A stretch of DNA of 32,000 nucleotides from Geotalea daltonii FRC-32 (GTDB lineage: Bacteria > Desulfobacterota > Desulfuromonadia > Geobacterales > Geobacteraceae), in assembly GCF_000022265.1 (NCBI RefSeq), contig NC_011979.1:3180001-3212000 (forward strand). The letters are read 5' to 3'. Position 1 is the first letter of the stretch; every line of letters begins with the position of its first letter. Under the pieces are notes generated by a model that saw only the letters and a list, made by a program, of their open reading frames with translations, did no database searches and was not told the DNA's origin. Shown here piece after piece: positions 449-19,624 of the stretch. Made by a program: the position numbers and the translations under genes.

Positions 449-1444
449 TTACTGACGCATTGTGCCCAGGCCGGTTACACCAGTTGACGGAATATCACTT
501 CCATGAATCTGTGAATGGCAATCCGTGCAGCGATTGGAAAAGAGCTGTTTTGTTCCAGTGGTTCCGGCCATATGACCTGCATGGCACTGCAGGCAAAGAA
601 ATGGCATCGTTGTATTCAGAAGCTGGTTGTTGGTTGACCCGTGGGGGGAATGGCAATTGGTGCAATTCTCAGTGACATCGCCATGCTCGAAGACGAAGGG
701 ACCCTGTTTCTCCATGTGGCATTTCGTGCATGTTTCCTTTGGAGTATCGCCTTTAAGGAGGCTTTCCTGTGTGGACCCGTGGACATCATGACAGTCGGCA
801 CAGGCCATCTTTTTCTCCACCAGGGGGTGATGTGAATACAAGTTGTTTTCAATTCTTACCTGTGGATGGCAGCCATAGCATAACTCAGCCATCTCTTCAT
901 GCTTGACTTTCTGCTGTGGCCCCTGATGCAGCTTATGGCAATCAAGGCAACTCACGTCACTCAATGCGTGGGCACTGGCATTCCAGTGGGCCAGGGTCGG
1001 GATGGAAGCTGCGGAATGGCATTTAAGGCAGATAAGTGACTGGGCCTGGGCGGGGAGGTTCAGAATATCGAGGAATGTCTTGGAATCGCATTTTGTTTTC
1101 CTGGCGTCGTTCAATTCAGGGTCTTCAGGAAGGTCCATTATGGCAAGGCTTCCCGGACCATGGCAAGATTCGCAGTTGACCAGCGGCAGTCCTGTTCCCG
1201 GTTTTATCTGCTCACCATGGACGCTGTGCCGGAAATCGTCGGTTATCTTGTCATGGGCATGGCATTTGGCAACGCAATTGTCGGTTCCCACATAATCCGC
1301 ATCAAACCTGCCGACGATCATTCTTTCATAGTCAGAAACCGGCAGAAGCGGTTTTGTCTGCTTCAGCTGGGAACAGGCTGCCGACAGCACAGCAACAGCC
1401 ACGGCAATGAAAACACGGCACAGCATTCCCCTGTTGACTGTCAT
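449..1444 (-). CDS. Decaheme c-type cytochrome, MtrA/DmsE/MtoA/PioA-like
   Basis: 331 aa with ten CXXCH motifs: CVAKCH, CESCH, CLKCH, CLDCH, CYGCH, CADCH, CTKCH, CTNCH, CLQCH, CTDCH. N-terminal signal peptide MLCRVFIAVAVAVLSAAC. Size and heme count match periplasmic MtrA-type decahemes. Confidence 0.85.
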   Translation of the reverse strand: MTVNRGMLCRVFIAVAVAVLSAACSQLKQTKPLLPVSDYERMIVGRFDADYVGTDNCVAKCHAHDKITDDFRHSVHGEQIKPGTGLPLVNCESCHGPGSLAIMDLPEDPELNDARKTKCDSKTFLDILNLPAQAQSLICLKCHSAASIPTLAHWNASAHALSDVSCLDCHKLHQGPQQKVKHEEMAELCYGCHPQVRIENNLYSHHPLVEKKMACADCHDVHGSTQESLLKGDTPKETCTKCHMEKQGPFVFEHGDVTENCTNCHSPHGSTNNQLLNTTMPFLCLQCHAGHMAGTTGTKQLFSNRCTDCHSQIHGSDIPSTGVTGLGTMRQ

Positions 1445-2287
1445 CTAATCCCCTCGTATTCCCTTTGTTGTCGTGTAGATGAAACCCTTTACGATCGGAT
1501 TCTCGCTCTTTTTGATCTGTGCCGGAGAGCCTACCTCGATAATCTTGCCTCCATGCATCATGGCAATACGGTCTGAAATGTAGAGTGCAAAATTCAAATC
1601 ATGGGTGACTATAACGGTCGTATTTTTAGTAGTTTCCTTGAGTTTCAAAATAGTATTGGCAAGCTCGTCCGTAGTTACCGGGTCCAGCTCTGCAGTGGGC
1701 TCGTCATAAAGTATCAGATCAGGGTTCATGGCCAGGGAACGGGCAATGGCAACCCTTTTTTTCATCCCCCCCGAAAGTTCGGAGGTCCTCAAATTTTCCG
1801 TGTCCTGCAGGCCTACCTTTTCCAGTTTTTCAGTTATGATCTGCCTGATCCTCACTTCCTTGCAGATGCGCTTTTCGCGCAACCAAAGACCGACGTTTTC
1901 GCCAACTGTCAGTGAATTAAAGAGCGCAGAAGACTGAAAGACCATGCTGTAGCGGTAGTCTCTGATGGAGTTGTTTTTAATCCTGTTGAAAATGGGATTG
2001 CCGTCAATATAGATCTCACCGCTGTCCGGTGTTTCAAGCTTGACCACATGTTTCAATAAAACACTTTTCCCGGTACCGGACGGACCGATTATACTGAAAG
2101 TTTCACCGGCCTTTATCTCCAGATCGATATCCTGTAGAACATGCTTTTCACCAAAATACTTGTTCAGTTTGTCGATCCTGATGTCTACACCACGGGTATC
2201 ATTAAGGTTGACATTGCATTCCATCTCATTGTCAAAGATGGAACCGGTGAGGCCATGCTTTATTTTTTCAAACACAGAAGCTCCCAT
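1445..2287 (-). CDS. ABC transporter ATP-binding protein, MlaF/Ttg2A-like; no cognate permease adjacent
   Basis: Walker A GPSGTGKS, signature LSGGMKKR, Walker B LILYDEPT, H-loop VTHD. Single ATPase domain with an N-terminal extension of about 35 aa. Its stop codon directly abuts the ATG of the cytochrome gene. Confidence 0.9.
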   Translation of the reverse strand: MGASVFEKIKHGLTGSIFDNEMECNVNLNDTRGVDIRIDKLNKYFGEKHVLQDIDLEIKAGETFSIIGPSGTGKSVLLKHVVKLETPDSGEIYIDGNPIFNRIKNNSIRDYRYSMVFQSSALFNSLTVGENVGLWLREKRICKEVRIRQIITEKLEKVGLQDTENLRTSELSGGMKKRVAIARSLAMNPDLILYDEPTAELDPVTTDELANTILKLKETTKNTTVIVTHDLNFALYISDRIAMMHGGKIIEVGSPAQIKKSENPIVKGFIYTTTKGIRGD

Positions 2288-2297
2288 GGGACTAAAC

Positions 2298-2798
2298 TTA
2301 AAACAGATATTTATGTCTGTTGGTAAAATAATGCTTGTGGCGGTAGATAAACTGGGTCAGAAGAAGAATGGCCAAAGAAGCGGCAATATTATTAGTCCAC
2401 AATGACTCCAGCTGAATCCTGGAACCGATTAGCTTTTCAACCTCCTGGGGCTTTATGAATGTGAGGTTGATTATGGTGTTGACTACCTGGAACAGGTTGT
2501 AAAGAATCAGCATGTACCACGTAAGCAATTGACGCTTCATCGTTCCAAGAAAAAGGTACAGACACATCAGACAGTCGATGAAAACCATCATTTTGGCCGA
2601 AGAATCTGTATAGATATCGCCTAAGAACGGATAAGGATTGCCGAAGGTTGAAACAGAAACCAGGAAAAAAAAGAAATAGAGCCCGGTCAGTAGTGTCAAT
2701 CCCAAAGGGCGGCGCAATTCTTCGCTGTCTACCATCAAAATATCCTTTAAGGGTGAACTCCGGTGCTGTCTGTCATGCCTGATGTTACAACGGTGCAT
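2298..2798 (-). CDS. Hypothetical integral membrane protein (about 4 TM helices)
   Basis: 166-aa ORF with four hydrophobic segments: LGLTLLTGLYFFFFLVSV, MMVFIDCLMCLYLFLG, LLTWYMLILYNLFQVV, IAASLAILLLTQFIY. No family recognised. The start is ATG 2798 or ATG 2735. Confidence 0.6.
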   Translation of the reverse strand: MHRCNIRHDRQHRSSPLKDILMVDSEELRRPLGLTLLTGLYFFFFLVSVSTFGNPYPFLGDIYTDSSAKMMVFIDCLMCLYLFLGTMKRQLLTWYMLILYNLFQVVNTIINLTFIKPQEVEKLIGSRIQLESLWTNNIAASLAILLLTQFIYRHKHYFTNRHKYLF

Positions 2799-2908: not shown

Positions 2909-3871
2909 CTAATACAGCTGATCTAATGCAGCACGGGCCTCGTCATAGGCCGGATTAATTGCGAGCGCTTCCTGCAGATATTCTTCCGCATATTTGGGCA
3001 TTGCCATGTTCTTACAGCACAACGCCAGGTAGTAATATAATTCCGGCAAGGGAAACTGCTGGCAGAAAGCAGCATCATCGATAATATCCTGGTAAATGGC
3101 CGCCGATTCTTCATATTGGCCTGCCTCAAAGAGAGACATGGCCACCGCCACGGCTTCAAGGTAATCAACTACCGGTATGCGCGGGAATTCGCCCGCCTCG
3201 ATCTTTTTGAGGCGTGCCTCCAGCTTTTCAGCCTCAACTTTGTCGAGCTCCGAAATGATCCCGCTCCAGCAGGACAATGCCTTATCATACTTCCCAAGCA
3301 GATAATAGACCTCGCCCAAGGTATTTTGTGCAGGCATATGCTTAGGATCAAACTGACGTGCCTTTTCGAGAAAATCCACTGCACGGTAGAGGGAAATTGT
3401 CGAAAGATGCAAGGCGGAAAGTCTCATCCCTTTGTCCAGCAAAGTCTTGCCGATCTCGAAGGGAAACTGCGCATTTTCCGGCTCAATCAAGGCAAATATC
3501 TTCAGATAATTTATTTTTCTGTCCAGGTATGTGACTTCCACATCTTTTTGATCCAGCATGACAATGTGGCTTGCCAGTTCGGAAAGGTAGTGGGGATAGG
3601 CTTGCTGCAACAGGTTTGCATAATTGCTGCTGCCAACGGCATCCGGGTTAGCCCGCAAAAGTTGGTATATGCCCCTCCCCACTGCGTCATAACCGGGTGA
3701 AGAAGCGCCAAGGGCAGAGTGATCCTCTGCGAGTAGCGGAATGGGCATACTGCCAATGGGAATATGAATCTTGCCATCAAGTCCGTCAAGGATGGCGTCT
3801 GCCGAAGGTTCATAATAAACTATTCCTGTAACGGGTGTCATATCGGTGATGGTTAAGCGTCTGATGGTCAT
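2909..3871 (-). CDS. TPR-repeat protein
   Basis: 320 aa. The C-terminal half has TPR-like helix pairs: AQNTLGEVYYLLGKYDKALSCW, LFEAGQYEESAAIYQDII, YYYLALCCKNMAMPKYAEEYLQEALAINPAYDEA. The N-terminal 150 aa or so are unassigned. The start overlaps the upstream stop as ATGA. Confidence 0.8.
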   Translation of the reverse strand: MTIRRLTITDMTPVTGIVYYEPSADAILDGLDGKIHIPIGSMPIPLLAEDHSALGASSPGYDAVGRGIYQLLRANPDAVGSSNYANLLQQAYPHYLSELASHIVMLDQKDVEVTYLDRKINYLKIFALIEPENAQFPFEIGKTLLDKGMRLSALHLSTISLYRAVDFLEKARQFDPKHMPAQNTLGEVYYLLGKYDKALSCWSGIISELDKVEAEKLEARLKKIEAGEFPRIPVVDYLEAVAVAMSLFEAGQYEESAAIYQDIIDDAAFCQQFPLPELYYYLALCCKNMAMPKYAEEYLQEALAINPAYDEARAALDQLY

Positions 3872-4710
3872 TTCTCCAGTCTGTCCCCATCGGGAAAGGT
3901 ATTGACGCCGGCTGAGCGGCCAATCATCTTGTATATTTTCACATCATCCCACGGCTCATCCATAATACCGTCATGGATGGACCAGCTGCGGCCAAAGGCT
4001 GTTGCCGCCATTTCCGGACGGCGAAAGGGATTCGAGTTATCAAGCCTTGCATACAACATGCCCCCCGGCTTGAATCCTTCGTTTATATCCTGCATTAATC
4101 GCTTGCCCGTAATATAATCGAATCCGTATTTTTCATAACGCAGGGCATTGTCATAGGTCAACGGCTCGGCCACGATCATTTCCATCCCCAAACCATCCAC
4201 AAACAACTCCAGAAGAGTGAAAACTTCCCGGAACATCCTCAGGCCACGATGGGTCTGGTTGGGGAAAAGACCGGCCTCCATGGCCCTGATTTCCTCCGGG
4301 ATGTTCCTGCCGGTGCTGGCAAAGCAGTTGTCTTCGCCCGATTCGTCCTTGTCCACATTATAACGTGGTGCGGACAGGTCGTTGATGATGCAGAAGGATA
4401 GTTCCATCTGCCGGTATTGGGTGTCTGCCAGTTCAAGAAAAAAGACCCGTTCCTTGTCGGCAGAACTAATTCTGGCTTCAATTCGCATGAGGCCCAAGCC
4501 GCGAGGTGCTATAAATTCGATTTTTGCATTTCCCTCTGCTTCGCCAAAGGTTCCCGGCCTGATCCCAAGCACATGATAAAGCCGGTCAGGAATGAGCCTT
4601 GAATATATTCTTTTTTTCTCCACGGCATCAAGAAAACTGATGTCTCTCAGGGAAAAGAGAGCATTCCCTCTTAAATCGGTCAGCTGCTCATTTCCCGGAA
4701 GTTTGGCCAT
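3868..4710 (-). CDS. Hypothetical protein with a divergent GNAT-like (acyl-CoA N-acyltransferase) C-terminal core
   Basis: 280 aa. The segment LFPNQTHRGLRMFREVFTLLELFVDGLGMEMIVAEPLTYDNALRYEKYGFDY fits the GNAT motif A/B pattern, including the N-x-x-A-x-x-x-Y-E-K-x-G-F signature. The Q/RxxGxG/A loop is degenerate (HRGLRM). It overlaps the deacetylase gene by 23 nt. Confidence 0.65.
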   Translation of the reverse strand: MAKLPGNEQLTDLRGNALFSLRDISFLDAVEKKRIYSRLIPDRLYHVLGIRPGTFGEAEGNAKIEFIAPRGLGLMRIEARISSADKERVFFLELADTQYRQMELSFCIINDLSAPRYNVDKDESGEDNCFASTGRNIPEEIRAMEAGLFPNQTHRGLRMFREVFTLLELFVDGLGMEMIVAEPLTYDNALRYEKYGFDYITGKRLMQDINEGFKPGGMLYARLDNSNPFRRPEMAATAFGRSWSIHDGIMDEPWDDVKIYKMIGRSAGVNTFPDGDRLEK

Positions 4711-5845
4711 ATGGTCCGATAATCACAGGAAAAATGGATTTTCTTACTTTGGCAATGGTCCTTTCAACAGCATCCAATGCCCGATTGCGGTCATCATCTT
4801 CCGCCCAGTGCATTGCATCCAGAAGCATCCTGTGCGGGAACCCCATCTGCCTGATCATTTCCACGAAGGGCCCCGGCAGAGATGGAGCCAGGTCCTTGCC
4901 GTTCATCACCGCCCAGACAATTGTCCAGGCCCGTGCCACGTTCATGTTGTCGTATCCCCCTCCCCCCACCGCCAACCAGGGAATTTGCAGTGCCTTTAAT
5001 TTTTTGACAATGTACGAGTAGGCGTGGGTGGTTATCTCCAGCTTTGTCAAGGGATCGGTGCGAAAGGTATCGGCTCCCATCTGGGTTACCAGCACATCCG
5101 GGTCAAATGCAGCGATCAAAGGGAATGCAACCTCATCAAAGGCCTTCATGTAGATGGCATCGTCGGTATGTTCCAGAAGTGGCACATTGACTGTATATCC
5201 GGTGCCTGCCCCTGTACCGATCTCTTCTTCAAAACCGGTACCAGGAAAAAAATAAATCCCGCTCTGGTGAAGGGAGATTGTCAGCACCTGATCATTTTCG
5301 TAAAAAGCCTCCTGAACCCCATCTCCATGATGGGCATCCAGGTCCAGGTAAACCACCCTCTTCCCTTGGGCAAGGAGGTAGTTGATGGCAACGGCAGCGT
5401 CATTCAGGTAGGAAAAACCCGAAGCCTTGCTGCGGTGCGCATGATGCCAACCACCGGCAAGATTGAATGCAGCCTTGTAACCTTCCTCGACGATCAGCCG
5501 GGCGCCTTCCAGTGTGCCTGCCGTTCCCATGCAGGCCCAATCATACACACCTTTAAAGATCGGGTTTTCAGTATCACCAAGGCCGAAACGGAAATCGGCC
5601 CTGGACTCTTCAGCGGCACTGAATTCCTTCAACCTGGCCAGATAATCATGGGAATGGAAGGTCAGCAACTGTTCATCGGTAATGGTGCCACAACGGCATA
5701 CGCTGACGTCGGGAAGGCATGTAAGTCCATAGGCATGAATAAGCTCGTAGGCTAGCTTATACCGCTGGACTTTGAATGGATGATCAGTCCCATAACAGTA
5801 GGAGCCACAGTCCGGCGAATAGATCAGGGCGGTTCTGGCGGTCAA
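4688..5845 (-). CDS. Histone deacetylase-family (AcuC / class I HDAC-like) zinc deacetylase
   Basis: Catalytic and zinc motifs GGWHHA, DLDAHHGDG and GGGGYD are present. The ORF track extends to a TTG at 5926. I prefer TTG 5845, giving (M)TARTALIYSPD, because GGAGA lies 5 nt upstream and a promoter-like element sits inside the 5846-5926 extension. Confidence 0.88.
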   Translation of the reverse strand: MTARTALIYSPDCGSYCYGTDHPFKVQRYKLAYELIHAYGLTCLPDVSVCRCGTITDEQLLTFHSHDYLARLKEFSAAEESRADFRFGLGDTENPIFKGVYDWACMGTAGTLEGARLIVEEGYKAAFNLAGGWHHAHRSKASGFSYLNDAAVAINYLLAQGKRVVYLDLDAHHGDGVQEAFYENDQVLTISLHQSGIYFFPGTGFEEEIGTGAGTGYTVNVPLLEHTDDAIYMKAFDEVAFPLIAAFDPDVLVTQMGADTFRTDPLTKLEITTHAYSYIVKKLKALQIPWLAVGGGGYDNMNVARAWTIVWAVMNGKDLAPSLPGPFVEMIRQMGFPHRMLLDAMHWAEDDDRNRALDAVERTIAKVRKSIFPVIIGPYGQTSGK

Positions 5846-5894
5846 AGGTCTCTCCGGCTGTCGCCACAGTGGCGAACTATCGTGAATTGTTGAG

Positions 5895-5923
5895 AATTTA
5901 CAATGTAAGCTTTTAAGCGTCAA
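5895..5923 (-). promoter_or_regulatory. Sigma-70-like promoter for the deacetylase-to-cytochrome gene string
   Basis: Minus strand reads TTGACG (5923-5918), then 17 nt, then TAAATT (5900-5895). This is about 50 nt upstream of the TTG 5845 start. Confidence 0.35.
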
Positions 5924-6043
5924 CAACTATTTCCGCTCCCGCAGTCATGTTTTTAGGCACTGGGGATGAATTTTTGAGCACTTGGCAGATAAAAAAGAAA
6001 GCTACTGAAAGTTTATCCCTGTAATTTCAGTTACCTGCACAAT

Positions 6044-6059
6044 TGGCAAAAAGGTTGCT
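6044..6059 (+). promoter_or_regulatory. Sigma-54 (-24/-12) promoter upstream of the ammonium transporter
   Basis: TGGCAA-AAAGG-TTGCT matches the TGGCAC-N5-TTGCW consensus, with correct GG-to-GC spacing (G6045 to G6057 is 12 nt). It lies 60 nt upstream of the amt ATG. Confidence 0.6.
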
Positions 6060-6119
6060 ATGGCAAAGACCGTGTCTTACCCAAAGGCGGGTAAAGAGCT
6101 TTACCACTGGAGGTAATAA

Positions 6120-7340
6120 ATGGAAGCAATGCCAACGCCGGCAAATCTACACAGCAGTTCCGACGTCCTTTTCCTCATGCTTGGTGCCGTCATGGTCTTC
6201 GCCATGCATGCCGGTTTCGCCTTTCTCGAAGTGGGCACTGTTCGCAAGAAAAACCAGGTAAATGCCTTCGTCAAAATCATTACCGACTGGTCGGTCTCAA
6301 CCATTGTCTATTTCCTCATCGGTTTTCCCATTGCATACGGCATTTCCTTTCTGGTGCCAGCCACCGATCTCCTTGGCGCCAATCAGGGATACGATCTTAC
6401 CCATTTCTTTTTTCTGCTCTGCTTCTCTGCCTGCATTCCGGCAATCATCTCCGGAGGTATAGCGGAACGGGCGAAGTTTTGGCCTCAGGTGCTGGCCGGC
6501 GCAATTTTTGCCGGGTTGACCTATCCCATCTTCGAGTCCCTGATCTGGGGGCAGAATTCTGCACCGCTACAGAGTTTTTTCAAGACCTACGGGGGAGCCG
6601 AATTTCATGATTATGCGGGCTCGGTTGTAGTCCATTCCATTGGCGGTTGGCTCGCCCTGCCGGCAGTGATCATCCTTGGACCCCGAATGGGACGCTATCT
6701 TCGGGGCAAATCGCATCCGATTCCAATAAGCAATATACCCTTCCTTGCACTGGGTTCCTGGATACTTGCCGTAGGCTGGTTCGGCTTCAATGTCATGAGC
6801 GCCGGACACCTGGAGAAGATATCCGGACTGGTTGCGGTAAATTCATTGATGGCCATGGTCGGCGGCATTCTAGCGGCACTTGTAGCAGGCAAAAACGACC
6901 CCGGCTTCGTCCACAACGGCGCTTTGGCCGGCCTGATTGCCGTTTGTGCAGGGAGCGATATCATGCATCCTCTGGCGGCATTCATCACCGGATGCATCGC
7001 TTCCATTATCTTTGTCTACGGTTTTCATCTGGAACAGGAAAAACTGAAGATCGACGATGTGCTTGGCGTCTGGCCTCTCCATGGGGTGATTGGTTCCTGG
7101 GGAGGAATCGCTACCGGGATCTTCGGTCACAAATTTTTCGGGGGCATGGGGGGAGTCACCTTCATGTCACAACTTATGGGATCGGTGCTGGCAATTGCCT
7201 TTGCCCTTGTCAGCAGTCTGATTGTCTATGGCTGCCTTTCCAAAACCATCGGCGTCAGGCTGGATGAAGAACAGGAATTTGCCGGAGCCGATTTGAGCAT
7301 CCATAGTATCGGTGCATATCCGGAAGATCATGTCCGGTAA
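6120..7340 (+). CDS. amtB: Ammonium transporter (Amt family)
   Basis: 406-aa polytopic protein. Amt signatures: DYAGSVVVHSIGGW (first pore His) and LGVWPLHGVIGSWGG (second pore His). GGAGG lies 6 nt upstream of the ATG. Confidence 0.95.
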   Translation: MEAMPTPANLHSSSDVLFLMLGAVMVFAMHAGFAFLEVGTVRKKNQVNAFVKIITDWSVSTIVYFLIGFPIAYGISFLVPATDLLGANQGYDLTHFFFLLCFSACIPAIISGGIAERAKFWPQVLAGAIFAGLTYPIFESLIWGQNSAPLQSFFKTYGGAEFHDYAGSVVVHSIGGWLALPAVIILGPRMGRYLRGKSHPIPISNIPFLALGSWILAVGWFGFNVMSAGHLEKISGLVAVNSLMAMVGGILAALVAGKNDPGFVHNGALAGLIAVCAGSDIMHPLAAFITGCIASIIFVYGFHLEQEKLKIDDVLGVWPLHGVIGSWGGIATGIFGHKFFGGMGGVTFMSQLMGSVLAIAFALVSSLIVYGCLSKTIGVRLDEEQEFAGADLSIHSIGAYPEDHVR

Positions 7341-7469: not shown

Positions 7470-8294
7470 ATGAAAAAACAGCTGGGAGATTTATTGGTAG
7501 AAGCCGGAATCATCACCAATACTACCCTGGAAAGGGCTCTGCAAAGACAAAAAGGAACAAACAAACGTCTGGGAACAGTGCTTGAGGAAATGGGGGTGGT
7601 CACTGGTGATGAACTGGTCACTGCCGTTGCCGGACAGTTCGGCCTGAAAACGGTCAAAAATGTTGCAGCTTTTTCCTATCCCCAAGCATTGCTTGATCTT
7701 ATCCCTGAAGATATGGCCCTGCAGAAACTGATTTTTCCGTTGAAACAAAAGGAAGGGCTTCTTGCCATTGCCATCGCTGATCCTTTTGATACCGATTCAC
7801 AAGATTATCTGGCAAAGAAAACAAGCTGTAAAGTCATACCGGTACTGGCCACGCCGGAAGACATCATGGCTGCCGTGAAGAAGTTCTATCTGAAGGGAGC
7901 TGCAAAATCCGACAGAACGATGGTCTTGGTGGTCGATGATTCAAAATCCGTGGCAACAATAATCCAGGTGGCTCTTGAGAAGGAGGGATACCAGGTGGTT
8001 GTGGCCAGTGATGGGGTGGAAGGCCTGAAGCTGGCTATTCAACATAAACCGACGCTGGTGATTTGCGACTCGGTAATGCCCCGCATGGATGGATTTGCTT
8101 TCAAGCGTGCTTTGAAAGCAAATCCCGACACCGCCGATATCCCGGTAATTCTTCTGACTTCCAAGGCCTCACCCGAAGAGGAGCATGCCGCATTGACATC
8201 GGGTTTCCTCGATTTCATTGCCAAACCTGTCATGCCCATGCGGGTGATTTCCCGCGTCAACAGAGCCATGGAATTGATAAAGCACATAAAATAA
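7470..8294 (+). CDS. Response regulator: N-terminal T2SSE_N/MshEN-type domain fused to a CheY-like receiver
   Basis: Residues 1-150 look like a GspE/PilB N-terminal domain (LGDLLVEAGII...RLGTVLEEMGVV...LIFPL...IAIADPFD). Residues 160-274 form a canonical receiver: VVDDS, phospho-acceptor in ICDSVMPRMDG, LLTS, AKP. Confidence 0.85.
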   Translation: MKKQLGDLLVEAGIITNTTLERALQRQKGTNKRLGTVLEEMGVVTGDELVTAVAGQFGLKTVKNVAAFSYPQALLDLIPEDMALQKLIFPLKQKEGLLAIAIADPFDTDSQDYLAKKTSCKVIPVLATPEDIMAAVKKFYLKGAAKSDRTMVLVVDDSKSVATIIQVALEKEGYQVVVASDGVEGLKLAIQHKPTLVICDSVMPRMDGFAFKRALKANPDTADIPVILLTSKASPEEEHAALTSGFLDFIAKPVMPMRVISRVNRAMELIKHIK

Positions 8295-8296
8295 AA

Positions 8297-8324
8297 AATG
8301 GTTACCGCTCCGGCGGTAACCATT
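8297..8324 (-). terminator. Terminator hairpin between convergent genes, mainly serving gltX
   Basis: 12-bp perfect stem AATGGTTACCGC / GCGGTAACCATT with loop TCCG. On the minus strand it is followed by TTTTTTAT. Confidence 0.7.
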
Positions 8325-8347
8325 GCCCAGACATGGCTTCACCCGTG

Positions 8348-9754
8348 TTACTTTTTATCGATGAAAGCTGCCGCTCTCTCCAGTCTCAGACAGGTTTCCT
8401 CTTTACCCAGTACAGCCATGACCTCGTAAATACCTGGAGCCGCTGTGCCGCCACACAAGGCAATGCGGACCGGTTGAGCTATCTGTCCAAGCTTGAATCC
8501 CTTTTCTCCGCAGATATCTTTAAAAACAGACTCAATACTGTCATGGTCAAAGGTATCCAGCTCCGAAAGTTTGCCTATCAAAAGACGGTAAAGTGAGGCG
8601 GTATCAGGGGTGAAGAATTTCTCCACCGCTTTTTCATCATAAACAAAGTTACGCTGGTAATAAAATACAGCTCCTTCCGCCATTTCCACGAGGGTCCTGG
8701 CCCGTTCCTGGAGAGTCTTAACCACCTGGATCAGATCCGGCCCCCCCGTTAAATCGACACCCTTGTCGGCTAGAAAAGGAGCCAGCAGGTCGGCAAGGCG
8801 TTTTTCATCGCCGGTCTTGATATAGTGAGCATTCAGCCAGAGTAGCTTGTCGGGGTTAAATACTCCGGCGGAACGGCCGACCTGTTCAATATTGAATTTT
8901 TCAATAAGGTCTTCCTTGCTAAAGATTTCCTCGTCGCCGTGGCTCCAGCCAAGCCTGACCAGATAATTGACCATCGCCTCCGGAAGAAATCCCATGTCCC
9001 GGTATGCCATGACACTGGTGGCGCCATGACGCTTGGACAGACGTGTCTTGTCGGCACCGAGGATCATGGGCACATGGGCAAAGGCAGGAACAGGGTACCC
9101 CAGTGCTTCATAGAGAAGTATCTGGCGGGGGGTGTTGTTGACATGGTCATCGCCCCGGATAACCGTTGTTATCTCCATGGTCGCATCGTCAATGACAACC
9201 ACGAAATTATAGGTCGGGGTACCGTCGCTCCTCTGGATGATGAGATCATCCAGTTCGTCATTGTTGAAGGAGATCCTCCCCTTGATGAGGTCATCGAAGG
9301 CGGTCACTCCATCCTGCGGAGCCCTGAAACGCACCACATGGGGCCGGTCATCGAGAGCACCGGCAGGGAGATTGCGACAGGTGCCGTCATATTTGGGTTT
9401 TCGCCCTTCCTTGAAGGCGAGGTCTCTTTTCGCTTCGAGTTCTTCAGCCGTGCAGTAGCATTTATAGGCTTTTCCGGAATCAAGAAGTTTTTGCACAAAT
9501 TCCTTGTAAACCGGAAATCGTTCAGACTGATAGAACGGGCCTTCGTCCCAGTCAAGGCCGAGCCACTCCATCCCCTGAAGTATGGCATCAACAGATTCCT
9601 GGGTTGAACGGGCCACATCCGTATCCTCTATGCGGAGGATGAATGTCCCTCGCTGCTTTTTGGCCAAAAGCCAGTTAAAAAGAGCAGTCCGCGCTCCACC
9701 CACATGAAGATAGCCGGTCGGGCTGGGAGCAAAACGGAGACGTACTTGTGACAT
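8348..9754 (-). CDS. gltX: Glutamyl-tRNA synthetase
   Basis: Class I motifs [19 protein letters not shown] (HIGH-type) and RLSKRHG (KMSKS-type). The ORF track starts at TTG 9760. ATG 9754, with AAGGAG 6 nt upstream, is the better start. Confidence 0.95.
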
Positions 9755-18287: not shown

Positions 18288-19604
18288 TTATAGAAGATTG
18301 GCTGCCAATTCGGCCAGCTCCGAACGTTCCCCTTTTGTCATTGTTATATGTCCGGCAATGCCTTGTCCTTTAAACCTTTCCACCACATAAGTCAAACCAT
18401 TGCTTGAGGAATCCACATAAGGGTTGTCGATCTGGTAAGGGTCACCGGTAAGAACAATTTTCGTCCCTTCACCTGCACGGGTGATAATGGTTTTGATCTC
18501 GTGGGGGGTCAGGTTTTGGGCCTCGTCTACAATCATGTACTGATTGGGGATGGACCGGCCACGGATATAGGTCAGTGGCTCTATGTCCATGATACCCATG
18601 GCCATCAATTCCTTGTAGCCTTTGCTATGGCGCTTTTCCCCTTCGTGGCCGGTAAGCAGAAGTTCAACGTTGTCGAATATTGGCTGCATCCATGGTGTGA
18701 GTTTTTCTTCGATGTCGCCGGGCAGAAAACCCAGGTCCCTTCCCATGGGGAATACCGGGCGGGAGACGAGTAACCGGTTGTAAATATTTTCTTCTGCAGT
18801 CTTGTGCAATCCTGCAGCGATGGCAACCAGCGTCTTGCCCGTACCGGCCTTGCCGACCAGAGTTACCAGCTTGATGTTGTCATCCAGCAGCGCTTCCAGG
18901 GCGAAAGCCTGTTCGCGGTTCCGGGGATGAATGCTCCAGATACCTTCTTTACCAGCCCTTTTGATGGCAAAAACTTTATTCTCCTTATCGTCGTATCTAC
19001 CGATAGCCGTGTGGGAAGCATTCAACTGGTCTTTGAAACATACGAACTGGTTGGGGTAGAAGTTTTGTTCCATGGATAACCAGCCCTGGCCATGGAAACG
19101 GTCAATCACATCAGCTTCGGCTTCGATTTCGATATATCCTGAATAGAGATCTTCGATCACAACCTTGTCGGATTCGTAATCTTCGGCAACAAGGCCTATG
19201 GCATCTGCTTTGATGCGCAGGTTGGTATCCTTGGTTACGAATATGACTGGTTCTTTCTCATTTTTTGCCTTGACGTCAAAAGCCACCGCAAGAATGCGAT
19301 TATCGCCCCGCTCTTCGCGCAGCTCGGGAGGGAGCCTCTTCATCACTTTCTCTTCATAGATCTCGACGCGAATATTACCGCCATTTTCCAGCTTTATTCC
19401 TTCAGACAACGAGCCTTGCTTGCGCAGGTCGTCGAGAAGCCTGGATATTTGCCTGGCATTGCGCCCCGTTTCATTCATATCCTTTTTGAAACGGTCAATT
19501 TCTTCAATCACGGTGATGGGAATGATAATGTTGTTTTCCTGAAATTTGAAAACAGCCTGTGGATCATAGAGAAGTACGTTGGTGTCCAGTATGAAGTGTT
19601 TCAT
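18288..19604 (-). CDS. PIN-domain / PhoH-like ATPase fusion (YlaK-type)
   Basis: N-terminal PIN domain (FILDTNVLL...), then a PhoH core with Walker A GKAGTGKT and Walker B IVDEAQN. Start chosen at ATG 19604, which has AAGGA just upstream. The ORF track uses ATG 19619. Confidence 0.9.
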   Translation of the reverse strand: MKHFILDTNVLLYDPQAVFKFQENNIIIPITVIEEIDRFKKDMNETGRNARQISRLLDDLRKQGSLSEGIKLENGGNIRVEIYEEKVMKRLPPELREERGDNRILAVAFDVKAKNEKEPVIFVTKDTNLRIKADAIGLVAEDYESDKVVIEDLYSGYIEIEAEADVIDRFHGQGWLSMEQNFYPNQFVCFKDQLNASHTAIGRYDDKENKVFAIKRAGKEGIWSIHPRNREQAFALEALLDDNIKLVTLVGKAGTGKTLVAIAAGLHKTAEENIYNRLLVSRPVFPMGRDLGFLPGDIEEKLTPWMQPIFDNVELLLTGHEGEKRHSKGYKELMAMGIMDIEPLTYIRGRSIPNQYMIVDEAQNLTPHEIKTIITRAGEGTKIVLTGDPYQIDNPYVDSSSNGLTYVVERFKGQGIAGHITMTKGERSELAELAANLL

Positions 19605-19624
19605 GTAATCCTTTCCCATTCAAT

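What the first reader, a model, noticed from the sequence alone, without database searches (positions are those of the whole stretch)
2909..5845. Overlapping AcuC-type deacetylase, GNAT-like protein and TPR protein: a possible reversible acylation module
The HDAC-family enzyme keeps all its catalytic motifs (GGWHHA, DLDAHHGDG, GGGGY).

The overlapping 280-aa ORF carries a GNAT-like core (…RGLRMF…GMEMIVAEPLTYDNALRYEKYGF) behind an unrecognised N-terminal 150 aa or so. The third overlapping gene is a TPR scaffold.

An acetyltransferase/deacetylase pair is known from the B. subtilis acuABC operon, which controls acetyl-CoA synthetase. This GNAT-like protein is not AcuA-like in size or sequence, and a TPR partner replaces AcuB.

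The target is unknown. It could be a protein lysine, a polyamine or another small molecule.
Basis: partly seen in the sequence, partly recalled or inferred. Interest (0 to 1): 0.65.

Follow-up and report, generated by a model that had tools for sequence, protein, structure and literature searches.

The report
AcuC deacetylase with novel GNAT-like partner
In Geotalea daltonii an AcuC-type protein deacetylase gene overlaps a gene for an undescribed protein family with a predicted acetyltransferase-like fold. In other bacteria that family is fused to, or sits next to, the acetyltransferase AcuA, so it is probably an unrecognised part of the bacterial protein-acetylation switch.

Summary
Three overlapping minus-strand genes exist: an AcuC-type class I Zn-deacetylase (4688-5845, all catalytic motifs intact), the 280-aa Geob_2917 (3868-4710) and a TPR protein (2909-3871).

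- **No named family.** The 280-aa protein matches no Pfam, NCBIfam or PDB sequence.
- **Fold.** A confident AlphaFold model (pLDDT 93.7) has GNAT strand/helix order across the whole protein, with about 50 inserted residues between β4 and α3. Fold searches return almost only GNATs, but weakly (best E 0.012).
- **Family size.** It is small and undescribed: 278 clusters at 50% identity.
- **Link to AcuC.** The family lies directly downstream of AcuC in 72 of 79 related genomes.
- **Links to AcuA.** It is fused to genuine AcuA in NC10 bacteria, and divergently adjacent to AcuA in three loci whose AcuA relatives are named Actinomycetota.
- **TPR.** The TPR gene is optional (47 of 79).

Because the family co-occurs with intact AcuA, it is not simply an AcuA replacement. 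I slightly favour an acyl-CoA-binding regulator or adaptor of the Acu enzymes (about 0.4) over a true acetyltransferase (about 0.35). I rate it a new variant of a known kind of system.

The parts
4688..5845 (-). AcuC-type class I Zn-dependent deacetylase, 385 aa from the TTG at 5845. The mechanical ORF extends to 5926.
   Evidence: Pfam PF00850 at 2.4e-87, covering the full-length domain. The best solved relatives are RPD3, HDAC1/2/3/8 and Aquifex HDLP, E about 1e-71 to 1e-64. The exact 385-aa sequence is WP_012647989.1, 'acetoin utilization protein AcuC'. Motifs: GGWHHA 131-136, DLDAHHGDG 168-176, GADTF 257-261, GGGGY 294-298.
3868..4710 (-). 280-aa protein Geob_2917, a member of an undescribed family with a predicted divergent GNAT-like fold and genomic links to both AcuC and AcuA.
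   Evidence: No Pfam, NCBIfam or PDB sequence match. AlphaFold2 model: pLDDT 93.7, pTM 0.90. Foldseek hits are almost all GNATs, E 0.012-0.15, probability up to 0.98. 278 clusters at 50% identity. AcuC lies directly upstream in 72 of 79 loci. AcuA fusions and AcuA neighbours.
2909..3871 (-). 320-aa TPR protein Geob_2916. It is a lineage-specific, optional third gene of the cluster.
   Evidence: TPR_2 at 9.8e-11 and TPR_1 at 5e-10, in residues about 154-316. Its start overlaps the 280-aa stop (ATGA). A full-length orthologue lies directly downstream in 47 of 79 loci and is absent from a clade where the ABC ATPase follows directly.
4688..4710 (-). 23-nt overlap between the end of the deacetylase gene and the start of the 280-aa gene, suggesting translational coupling.
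   Evidence: Sequence read. The same abutting or overlapping arrangement is seen in the 72 linked loci, where the tblastn ends lie -23 to +35 nt from the 280-aa start.
5846..6119 (.). Intergenic region between the deacetylase operon and the divergent ammonium-transporter gene, presumed to hold the promoter.
   Evidence: ORF map. One sigma-70-like site at 5923..5895 on the - strand, but site counts are not above shuffled expectation. This is inference only.
2298..2798 (-). Conserved small membrane-protein ORF downstream of the TPR gene. Whether it belongs to the module is uncertain.
   Evidence: No Pfam or NCBIfam family. A tblastn orthologue lies downstream of the TPR gene in about 40 related loci at 36-68% identity.

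Best explanation
The locus is an Acu-type reversible lysine-acylation module of non-Firmicute design.

**The eraser.** The first gene encodes an active AcuC-type class I Zn-deacetylase.

**The partner.** The translationally coupled 280-aa protein belongs to a new family that forms a single, highly divergent GNAT-like domain. Its most conserved sequence falls on the elements that bind acyl-CoA in GNATs: the loop before α3, then β5 and α4.

**Proposed mechanism.** I propose that it binds acetyl- or acyl-CoA (or CoA) and acts as a partner subunit. It would couple the Acu enzymes to acyl-CoA status or to particular targets. In Desulfuromonadales it would gate or target AcuC. In NC10 bacteria and in the clade with Actinomycetota-named AcuA it would do the same for AcuA. 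This role resembles the sensor domains fused to other bacterial lysine acetyltransferases, and AcuB's control of AcuC in Bacilli.

**Accessory and targets.** The TPR protein is an optional scaffold. Likely targets are acyl-CoA-forming enzymes such as AMP-forming ligases.

**Shown versus inferred.**
- Shown: gene structure, the deacetylase's identity, family novelty and the genomic associations.
- Inferred from a model: the fold.
- Inferred: acyl-CoA binding, complex formation and a regulatory rather than catalytic role.

The broad claim, that this is an Acu-system component with a GNAT-like fold, I hold at about 0.7. The specific regulator/adaptor mechanism I hold at about 0.4.
For: **Deacetylase identity.**

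**Pairing with AcuC.** AcuC and the 280-aa gene form a conserved, overlapping pair in 72 of 79 assessable Desulfuromonadales-type loci. This includes Desulfuromonas soudanensis.

**Independent links to the writer AcuA.**
- 450-490-aa proteins of NC10/Methylomirabilis carry an N-terminal AcuA domain (P0127 vs PDB 2q04 at 2.8e-26 and BsAcuA 9g7f_C at 2e-24) fused to the 280-aa domain.
- In those fusions the residues aligned with AcuA E102 and W140 are kept. Mutating E102 or W140 abolishes AcuA activity (PMC11255334).
- A standalone AcuA (1.3e-32 to BsAcuA) is divergently adjacent to a standalone family member in L086, L091 and L092. The close relatives of that AcuA that carry names are Actinomycetota.
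- So the family accompanies, rather than replaces, a competent writer.

**Surrounding genes.** These loci also carry CBS and Usp genes and ADP-forming acetyl-CoA-synthetase-like genes. A CoA_binding_2 gene follows the TPR gene in L084, L064 and L075.

**Fold.** The model has pLDDT 93.7 and GNAT topology. Fold hits are nearly all GNATs and include the acetyl-CoA-bound M. tuberculosis ICL2 structures (6edz).

**Residue conservation.**
- The canonical GNAT catalytic positions vary: β4 Glu in 22 of 33 and α4 Tyr in 16 of 33 diverse members.
- G147, P150, Y186, E193, Y199, R241, W243 and D247 are invariant.
- Motif A is non-canonical: Q-x3-G.

**Precedent.** AcuB is an AcuC-binding inhibitor encoded in the acu operon (PMC13121692, PMC13039410).
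Against: - No binding, complex or activity data exist, and no complex prediction could be run.
- The GNAT assignment rests on a predicted model and on Foldseek E-values of only 0.012-0.15, with poor RMSD. No HMM supports it.
- Many members stand alone without AcuA or AcuC nearby: next to SmpB in L081, L090 and L093, and elsewhere in L082. That fits an autonomous enzyme better than a dedicated regulator.
- The AcuC-linked clade itself keeps both Glu103 and Tyr192, which is compatible with catalysis.
- The very strong conservation of many polar residues looks enzyme-like.
- CBS proteins, which resemble AcuB's Bateman domain, are also present in some AcuA-linked loci. The family is therefore not obviously 'the AcuB analogue' there.
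- I could not determine whether Geobacter genomes encode AcuA or Pat elsewhere.
Confidence: 0.4

Rival explanations
1. One reading: the 280-aa protein is itself the writer. It would be a divergent GNAT lysine acetyl- or acyl-transferase that uses acyl-CoA to modify the proteins AcuC deacetylates, for example the catalytic lysine of AMP-forming acyl-CoA ligases. It would thus be a functional replacement for AcuA in Desulfuromonadales.
For: - GNAT-like topology and fold hits, including protein acetyltransferases (Ard1, Naa50, HP0935).
- Conservation sits at the α3 N-terminal loop and in an 'N-A-x-x-Y-E-x-x-G-F' α4 motif.
- The AcuC-linked clade keeps Glu103 on β4 and Tyr192 on α4.
- No AcuA homologue was found in any of the linked loci.
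- Copies not linked to the deacetylase lie next to AMP-binding ligases that carry the PMTASGK lysine motif in L038, L040, L062 and L070, and next to a ligase in L087.
- Standalone members in many phyla suggest an autonomous enzyme.
Against: - Elsewhere the family is fused to, or adjacent to, an apparently competent AcuA. A second writer would be redundant there, and tandem GNATs usually have one inactive domain (my own knowledge).
- The canonical catalytic Glu and Tyr are not conserved family-wide. Tyr192 is Phe in the clade that neighbours AcuA.
- The Q/R-x-x-G-x-G/A pyrophosphate loop is not canonical.
- About 50 residues are inserted exactly between β4 and α3.
- No GNAT HMM hit in 68 members. 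hhalign probability is 0.8%.
Confidence: 0.35
2. The pair acts on a small molecule rather than on proteins. The GNAT-like protein would N-acylate a polyamine, amino acid or other amine, and the HDAC-family enzyme would hydrolyse it.
For: - HDAC-family enzymes include acetylpolyamine amidohydrolases (PMC11532494).
- The weak fold hits include SpeG and nourseothricin or aminoglycoside acetyltransferases.
- The divergent neighbour is an ammonium transporter, conserved in many loci.
Against: - The deacetylase is closest to class I lysine deacetylases (RPD3, HDAC1-3, HDAC8, HDLP), and no polyamine deacetylase appears among the 60 best PDB matches. NCBI names it AcuC.
- The family's other partners are AcuA, a protein lysine acetyltransferase specific for AcsA.
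- No polyamine or biosynthetic genes are in the cluster.
Confidence: 0.1
3. The 280-aa protein is the regulated target of the Acu enzymes, playing the role AcsA plays in Bacilli. That would explain why it is divergent from acuA, fused to AcuA, and co-transcribed with AcuC.
For: - In L086, L091 and L092 its divergent orientation to acuA mirrors the acsA/acuABC arrangement in Bacilli.
- AcuA forms a tight complex with its target AcsA (PMC11910552 abstract). A writer-target fusion is therefore conceivable.
Against: - No lysine is invariant or nearly invariant anywhere in the family. An acetyl-lysine switch therefore has no conserved site.
- No enzymatic function can be assigned that would need such control.
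Confidence: 0.05

Closest known systems
Bacillus subtilis acuABC system: AcuA writer, AcuB inhibitor of AcuC, AcuC eraser, acting on acetyl-CoA synthetase AcsA
   Same: Both have an AcuC-type class I Zn-deacetylase at their core. In both, the deacetylase is co-transcribed with a small partner protein. The partner family is also genomically tied to AcuA in other lineages. Both sit in a context of acyl-CoA and energy-sensing genes.
   Different: The window has no AcuA and no CBS-ACT AcuB. The partner is a 280-aa GNAT-like protein with no detectable sequence similarity to AcuA (hhalign probability 0.07%) and no CBS or ACT domain. A TPR protein is added in about 60% of loci. No acsA gene is adjacent.
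GNAT (Gcn5-related N-acetyltransferase) superfamily
   Same: The predicted order of strands and helices is the same across the whole protein: β1-α1-α2-β2-β3-β4-α3-β5-α4-β6-...-β7. Nearly all of the weak fold-search hits are GNATs. Motif-B-like 'NA..YE.YGF' sits on α4, and a Gln/Gly-containing loop precedes α3.
   Different: No GNAT HMM matches at any threshold. About 50 conserved residues are inserted between β4 and α3. Motif A is Q-x3-G instead of Q/R-x-x-G-x-G/A. The usual catalytic Glu and Tyr vary. A family-specific C-terminal 'RGRSWAIHDG' block is invariant.
Multidomain bacterial lysine acetyltransferases with fused sensor domains: Pat with an NDP-forming acyl-CoA-synthetase-like domain, and ACT-GNAT or cNMP-GNAT enzymes
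   Same: The NC10 proteins are an AcuA catalytic domain fused to a second, non-AcuA domain. This matches the pattern of a writer plus a regulatory domain. ACT-GNAT is described in PMC6434083 (abstract). The rest rests on my own knowledge.
   Different: Here the fused domain is itself GNAT-like and belongs to an uncharacterised family. In Desulfuromonadales it is a separate protein paired with the eraser, not the writer.
Non-catalytic GNAT-like acetyl-CoA-binding domains, for example the C-terminal domain of M. tuberculosis isocitrate lyase 2
   Same: The ICL2 structures, including the acetyl-CoA-bound form (6edw, 6edz), appear among the fold hits. They would set a precedent for a GNAT-like fold used to sense acetyl-CoA rather than to transfer it. 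That the match falls on a GNAT-like C-terminal domain is my own knowledge.
   Different: The fold match is weak (E about 0.1) and there is no sequence similarity. Ligand binding by Geob_2917 is untested.

Membership tests
Class I / AcuC-type Zn-dependent deacetylase (Pfam PF00850) | Full-length arginase/deacetylase-fold domain | tested here: met
   Hist_deacetyl at 2.4e-87, profile positions 1-297 of 298.
Class I / AcuC-type Zn-dependent deacetylase (Pfam PF00850) | Catalytic His-His pair, Asp-His-Asp Zn ligands and the catalytic Tyr of the GGGY loop | tested here: met
   GGWHHA 131-136, DLDAHHGDG 168-176, GADTF 257-261, GGGGY 294-298. The assignment of residues to roles follows established HDAC8/HDLP knowledge.
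Class I / AcuC-type Zn-dependent deacetylase (Pfam PF00850) | Closest to class I enzymes rather than to class II or polyamine deacetylases | tested here: met
   The best solved relatives are RPD3, HDAC1/2/3/8 and Aquifex HDLP, 1e-71 to 1e-60. NCBI names the exact sequence AcuC.
Class I / AcuC-type Zn-dependent deacetylase (Pfam PF00850) | Lysine deacetylase activity | not testable with these tools
   Needs an enzyme assay.
acuABC operon (Bacilli) | AcuA acetyltransferase and CBS-CBS-ACT AcuB encoded with AcuC, and acsA divergent | tested here: not met
   No AcuA, CBS, ACT-AcuB or acs gene in the cluster or elsewhere in the window. tblastn with AcuA domains finds nothing in the AcuC-linked loci.
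GNAT superfamily (for the 280-aa protein) | Match to a GNAT sequence profile | tested here: not met
   No Pfam or NCBIfam hit for the protein at E<=10. None of 68 family members hits any GNAT family. The profile finds no GNAT in PDB sequences.
GNAT superfamily (for the 280-aa protein) | GNAT fold: mixed β-sheet with β1-α1-α2-β2-β3-β4-α3-β5-α4-β6-β7 order | tested here: inconclusive
   The model (pLDDT 93.7) has this order of elements, with a 111-159 insertion. Foldseek returns almost only GNATs, but at E 0.012-0.15, TM 0.3-0.5 and high RMSD. I had no coordinates to inspect.
GNAT superfamily (for the 280-aa protein) | Pyrophosphate-binding motif A, Q/R-x-x-G-x-G/A, at the β4-α3 junction | tested here: not met
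   The family consensus before α3 is A-G-L-A-P-G-Q-V-R-R-G-L-R. Q152 and G156 are invariant or nearly so, but the spacing is Q-x3-G and the last position is R/K/G. It resembles the motif without matching it.
GNAT superfamily (for the 280-aa protein) | Conserved general base (Glu/Asp on β4/β5) and general acid (Tyr on α4) | tested here: inconclusive
   Glu103 in 22 of 33 and Tyr192 in 16 of 33 diverse members. Both are kept in the AcuC-linked clade. Many GNATs lack these residues (established knowledge).
GNAT superfamily (for the 280-aa protein) | Acyl-CoA binding and acyl transfer | not testable with these tools
   Needs binding and activity assays, or a ligand-bound structure.
AcuA | Sequence similarity to AcuA, including the E102 and 138-WHW-140 region | tested here: not met
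   No PDB sequence hit. hhalign vs the AcuA domains of the fusion proteins gives probability 0.07%.
TPR repeat proteins (third gene) | Tandem 34-residue TPR motifs | tested here: met
   TPR_2 and TPR_1 are above their gathering scores, with two stretches each. The N-terminal part, about 150 aa, has no family.

The most novel reading that the evidence does not exclude
Geob_2917 would found a new protein family: a GNAT-derived, acyl-CoA-responsive subunit that binds AcuC-type deacetylases and, in other phyla, AcuA acetyltransferases. That would make it a previously unknown fourth component of bacterial Acu-type acetylation switches and the non-Firmicute counterpart of AcuB. Alternatively, it would be a new kind of lysine acyltransferase that no current GNAT profile recognises.
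Probability: 0.55. Interest if true: 0.75.

Novelty: new variant of a known kind. Interest (0 to 1): 0.6.

Why it matters
How AcuC-type deacetylases and AcuA-type acetyltransferases are controlled was worked out only recently, and only for Bacilli. There, AcuB senses adenine nucleotides or Ap4A (PMC13121692, PMC13039410).

Outside Firmicutes, AcuC genes are common but have no known partners. This locus points to a conserved, uncharacterised partner family: at least 592 confirmed hits in the species-genome collection and more than 1300 clusters at 90% identity. Three independent kinds of genomic evidence tie it to both the eraser and the writer.

If the family senses or transfers acyl-CoA, it would link protein acetylation directly to the acetyl-CoA pool in metal-reducing Geobacter and relatives, in methane-oxidising NC10 bacteria and in an uncultured clade whose AcuA relatives are named Actinomycetota. 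It would also add a sequence family that current GNAT profiles miss.

Tried and rejected
**Approaches that led nowhere**
- Sequence searches of the 280-aa protein and of a 68-member profile against Pfam, NCBIfam and PDB found nothing.
- A first AlphaFold run on a shallow alignment of close relatives gave pLDDT 55 and uninformative fold hits. It was superseded by the run on a diverse alignment.
- hhalign against the AcuA domains of the fusion proteins gave probability 0.07%. The register was sensible but not significant.
- The promoter and terminator scan gave counts no higher than in shuffled sequence.
- Literature searches found nothing on this family or on Geobacter AcuC.
- The last homology search, using the AcuA of L092, found only close relatives; those with names are Actinomycetota. 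It could not tell whether Geobacter has an AcuA.

**Ideas considered and rejected**
- The 'target of acetylation' idea, because the family has no conserved lysine.
- The TPR protein as an obligatory part or an AcuB replacement, because it is absent from 32 of 79 loci.
- The N-terminal 150 aa as a separate unknown domain.

Full report
**What is there**

The window comes from Geotalea daltonii FRC-32. The 280-aa ORF is 100% identical to Geob_2917. Three genes lie head to tail on the minus strand:
- A histone-deacetylase-family gene. The mechanical ORF is 4688..5926. The start used by NCBI is the TTG at 5845, preceded by GGAGAG. The resulting 385-aa sequence is WP_012647989.1, 'acetoin utilization protein AcuC'.
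- The 280-aa gene at 3868..4710.
- A 320-aa TPR gene at 2909..3871 (Geob_2916).

The first two genes overlap by 23 nt. The second and third share ATGA. The neighbours are:
- Downstream: a small conserved membrane ORF, an ABC ATPase and a multihaem cytochrome.
- Upstream and divergent: an ammonium transporter, then a response regulator with an MshEN domain.
- The rest of the window: housekeeping genes with no acs, AcuA or AcuB gene.

**The deacetylase**

Pfam Hist_deacetyl matches at 2.4e-87 over the whole domain. The closest solved structures are class I enzymes: RPD3, HDAC1/2/3/8 and Aquifex HDLP, with E from 1e-71 to 1e-60. Graf et al. place bacterial AcuC proteins of Gram-positive and Gram-negative taxa in sub-cluster 2c, beside the eukaryotic class I enzymes (PMC11532494). 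This part of the finding is correct and ordinary.

**The 280-aa protein: sequence level**

It has no Pfam, NCBIfam or PDB sequence match, even at E<=10. A 68-member profile finds nothing meaningful in PDB. None of the 68 members hits any GNAT Pfam family.

The family is real and strongly conserved:
- 1082 and 1332 clusters at 90% identity in two searches.
- At least 592 confirmed stretches in the GTDB species-genome collection.
- Only 278 clusters at 50% identity among 1.84 billion representatives.

Every source calls the standalone members 'hypothetical protein'. Invariant or nearly invariant residues across phyla include R116, R135, N136, E140, G147, P150, Q152, G156, Y186, A189, E193, G196, Y199, R230, R241, W243 and D247. 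No lysine is conserved.

**The 280-aa protein: fold level**

A shallow alignment gave a poor model (pLDDT 55). A diverse 68-sequence alignment gave pLDDT 93.7 and pTM 0.90.

The order of secondary-structure elements matches the GNAT topology across the whole protein:
- Short N-terminal strands, then helices 29-39 and 42-48.
- Strands 64-67, 74-79, 90-96 and 102-110.
- An insertion at 111-159, which includes helix 137-145.
- Helix 160-173, strand 178-181, helix 186-194 and strand 198-201.
- Further helices, then strand 258-262.

So the 'unrecognised N-terminal 150 aa' is the first half of the same domain plus an insertion of about 50 residues between β4 and α3.

Foldseek against PDB gives no hit at E<=1e-3. 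Even so, almost all of the top 50 are GNATs. They include nourseothricin acetyltransferase (E 0.012, probability 0.96), Ard1, Naa50, HP0935, SpeG and AAC(6'). The M. tuberculosis ICL2 structures, including the acetyl-CoA-bound form, are also there. The viral library gives the same picture.

It does place 'AGLAPGQVRRGL' on motif A and 'EPL.Y.NAI..E.YGF' on motif B. Motif A is not canonical. The usual catalytic Glu (β4) and Tyr (α4) are conserved in only 22 and 16 of 33 diverse members. Both are kept in the AcuC-linked clade.

My reading is that a GNAT-like fold is probable, and that membership of the GNAT superfamily by sequence criteria is not shown.

**Genomic associations**

1. *With AcuC.* In 80 related genome loci, an AcuC orthologue lies directly upstream, abutting or overlapping, in 72 of 79 assessable cases. 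One further locus has a truncated match. The same holds in Desulfuromonas soudanensis.
2. *TPR is optional.* It follows in 47 of 79 loci. A whole clade goes straight to the ABC ATPase. In L084, L064 and L075 a CoA_binding_2 gene follows the TPR gene.
3. *Copies without AcuC.* Seven loci carry a family member without an adjacent intact AcuC. In L038, L040, L062 and L070 it sits next to an AMP-forming ligase with the PMTASGK lysine motif. In L032, L071 and L079 it sits next to ORFs that look by eye like acyl-CoA dehydrogenase and carboxylase genes.
4. *Fusion to AcuA.* Proteins of 450-490 aa from NC10/Methylomirabilis carry an N-terminal domain that matches solved AcuA structures at 2.8e-26 and 2e-24, fused to the 280-aa domain. 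The residues aligned with AcuA E102 and W140 are retained. Mutating E102 or W140 abolishes AcuA activity (PMC11255334).
   - One fusion locus, L088, has a CBS gene directly upstream, further CBS and Usp genes, and an ADP-forming acetyl-CoA-synthetase-like gene.
5. *Neighbour of AcuA.* In L086, L091 and L092 a standalone AcuA is divergently adjacent to a standalone family member. The L086 copy scores 1.3e-32 to B. subtilis AcuA and keeps the WHW motif.
   - L092 has a CBS protein immediately downstream, and an ADP-forming acetyl-CoA-synthetase-like gene lies 3-4 kb away.
   - The named close relatives of this AcuA are from Actinomycetota.
   - Matching contig lengths suggest several more such pairs.
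6. *Standalone members.* In L081, L090 and L093 the gene follows smpB. In L082 (Geothermincolales) it stands alone. L081 and L090 are from Anaerolineae by their source names.

**Interpretation**

The family is tied to both enzymes of the Acu switch by three independent kinds of evidence: an operon with overlapping genes, gene fusion, and divergent adjacency. I hold the claim that it is an Acu-system component at about 0.7.

Its role is open. It accompanies an apparently competent AcuA in two lineages. The canonical catalytic residues are not conserved family-wide. Lysine acetyltransferases are typically joined to sensor domains. AcuB sets a precedent for an operon-encoded AcuC-binding regulator. 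On these grounds I slightly favour an acyl-CoA-binding regulatory or adaptor subunit (about 0.4).

Several points favour it:
- The AcuC-linked clade keeps Glu103 and Tyr192.
- Standalone members suggest an autonomous enzyme.
- Ligase neighbours fit the classical targets of reversible lysine acetylation.

A small-molecule acylation cycle (about 0.1) and the family being a target of acetylation (about 0.05, given that no lysine is conserved) are less likely.

**Novelty**

The literature searches found no description of the family. The system is a new variant of a known kind: an Acu-type module with a new partner family and an optional TPR accessory.

**Limits**

- I had no coordinates for the model, so I could not inspect a CoA pocket.
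- I could not establish whether Geobacter encodes AcuA or Pat elsewhere.

Noticed in passing
L085 6001-7422, L088 7001-8359, L089 659-2038 (proteins P0376, P0369, P0308; also P0124, P0125, P0127, P0128, P0272): NC10/Methylomirabilis proteins of 450-490 aa are fusions of a genuine AcuA acetyltransferase domain with the Geob_2917-family domain. Sources annotate them only as 'GNAT family N-acetyltransferase'.
   Followed up: yes
L086 5147-5851(-), L091 5067-5786(-), L092 3670-4401(-): A standalone AcuA gene lies divergently adjacent to a standalone Geob_2917-family gene. The named close relatives of this AcuA are Actinomycetota. L092 also has a CBS-pair gene (5535-5954) directly after the family gene, and an ADP-forming acetyl-CoA-synthetase-like gene lies 3-4 kb away in all three loci.
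   Followed up: yes
P0155 (511 aa) and P0174 (563 aa): Two other fusion architectures exist. P0155 has an N-terminal HEAT-like helical-repeat region (weak Pfam hits, about 1e-3) fused to the family domain. That recalls the separate TPR partner in Geobacter. P0174 has an N-terminal region of about 310 aa with no Pfam family.
   Followed up: partly
L032, L071, L079; proteins P0091, P0095, P0108: A sub-group of family members carries an insertion of about 13 residues (…ELSVDKVLDEPWE…) before the last strand. The three loci shown are not linked to the deacetylase. Their neighbouring ORFs look by eye like acyl-CoA dehydrogenase and carboxylase genes.
   Followed up: partly
L081 5531-6822, L090 5508-6789, L093 5549-6840: In these loci the family gene directly follows smpB, abutting or overlapping it, downstream of two S41 PDZ peptidase genes. 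L081 and L090 are from Anaerolineae. The meaning of this arrangement is unknown.
   Followed up: no
window 2298-2798 (-): A small membrane-protein ORF with no Pfam or NCBIfam family is conserved downstream of the TPR gene in about 40 related loci.
   Followed up: partly
window 449-2287 (-): An ABC-transporter ATPase gene (1445-2287) abuts a multihaem c-type cytochrome gene with paired CXXCH motifs (449-1444). The pair is conserved downstream of the cluster in many relatives. In D. soudanensis the equivalent ATPase sits between MlaE and MlaD genes.
   Followed up: no
window 7470-8294 (+): A response regulator has an N-terminal MshEN domain in front of its receiver domain. It lies next to the ammonium transporter gene (6120-7340).
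   Followed up: no
window 18288-19619 (-): A PIN-domain/PhoH-like ATPase fusion protein lies among housekeeping genes (TsaD, KsgA, UDP-glucose dehydrogenase).
   Followed up: no
L084 7855-8406, L064 about 7998-8441, L075 about 4202-4579: A standalone CoA_binding_2 gene follows the TPR gene in Desulfuromonas soudanensis and in two Geomonas loci. This adds a CoA-related gene to the cluster in some lineages.
   Followed up: partly
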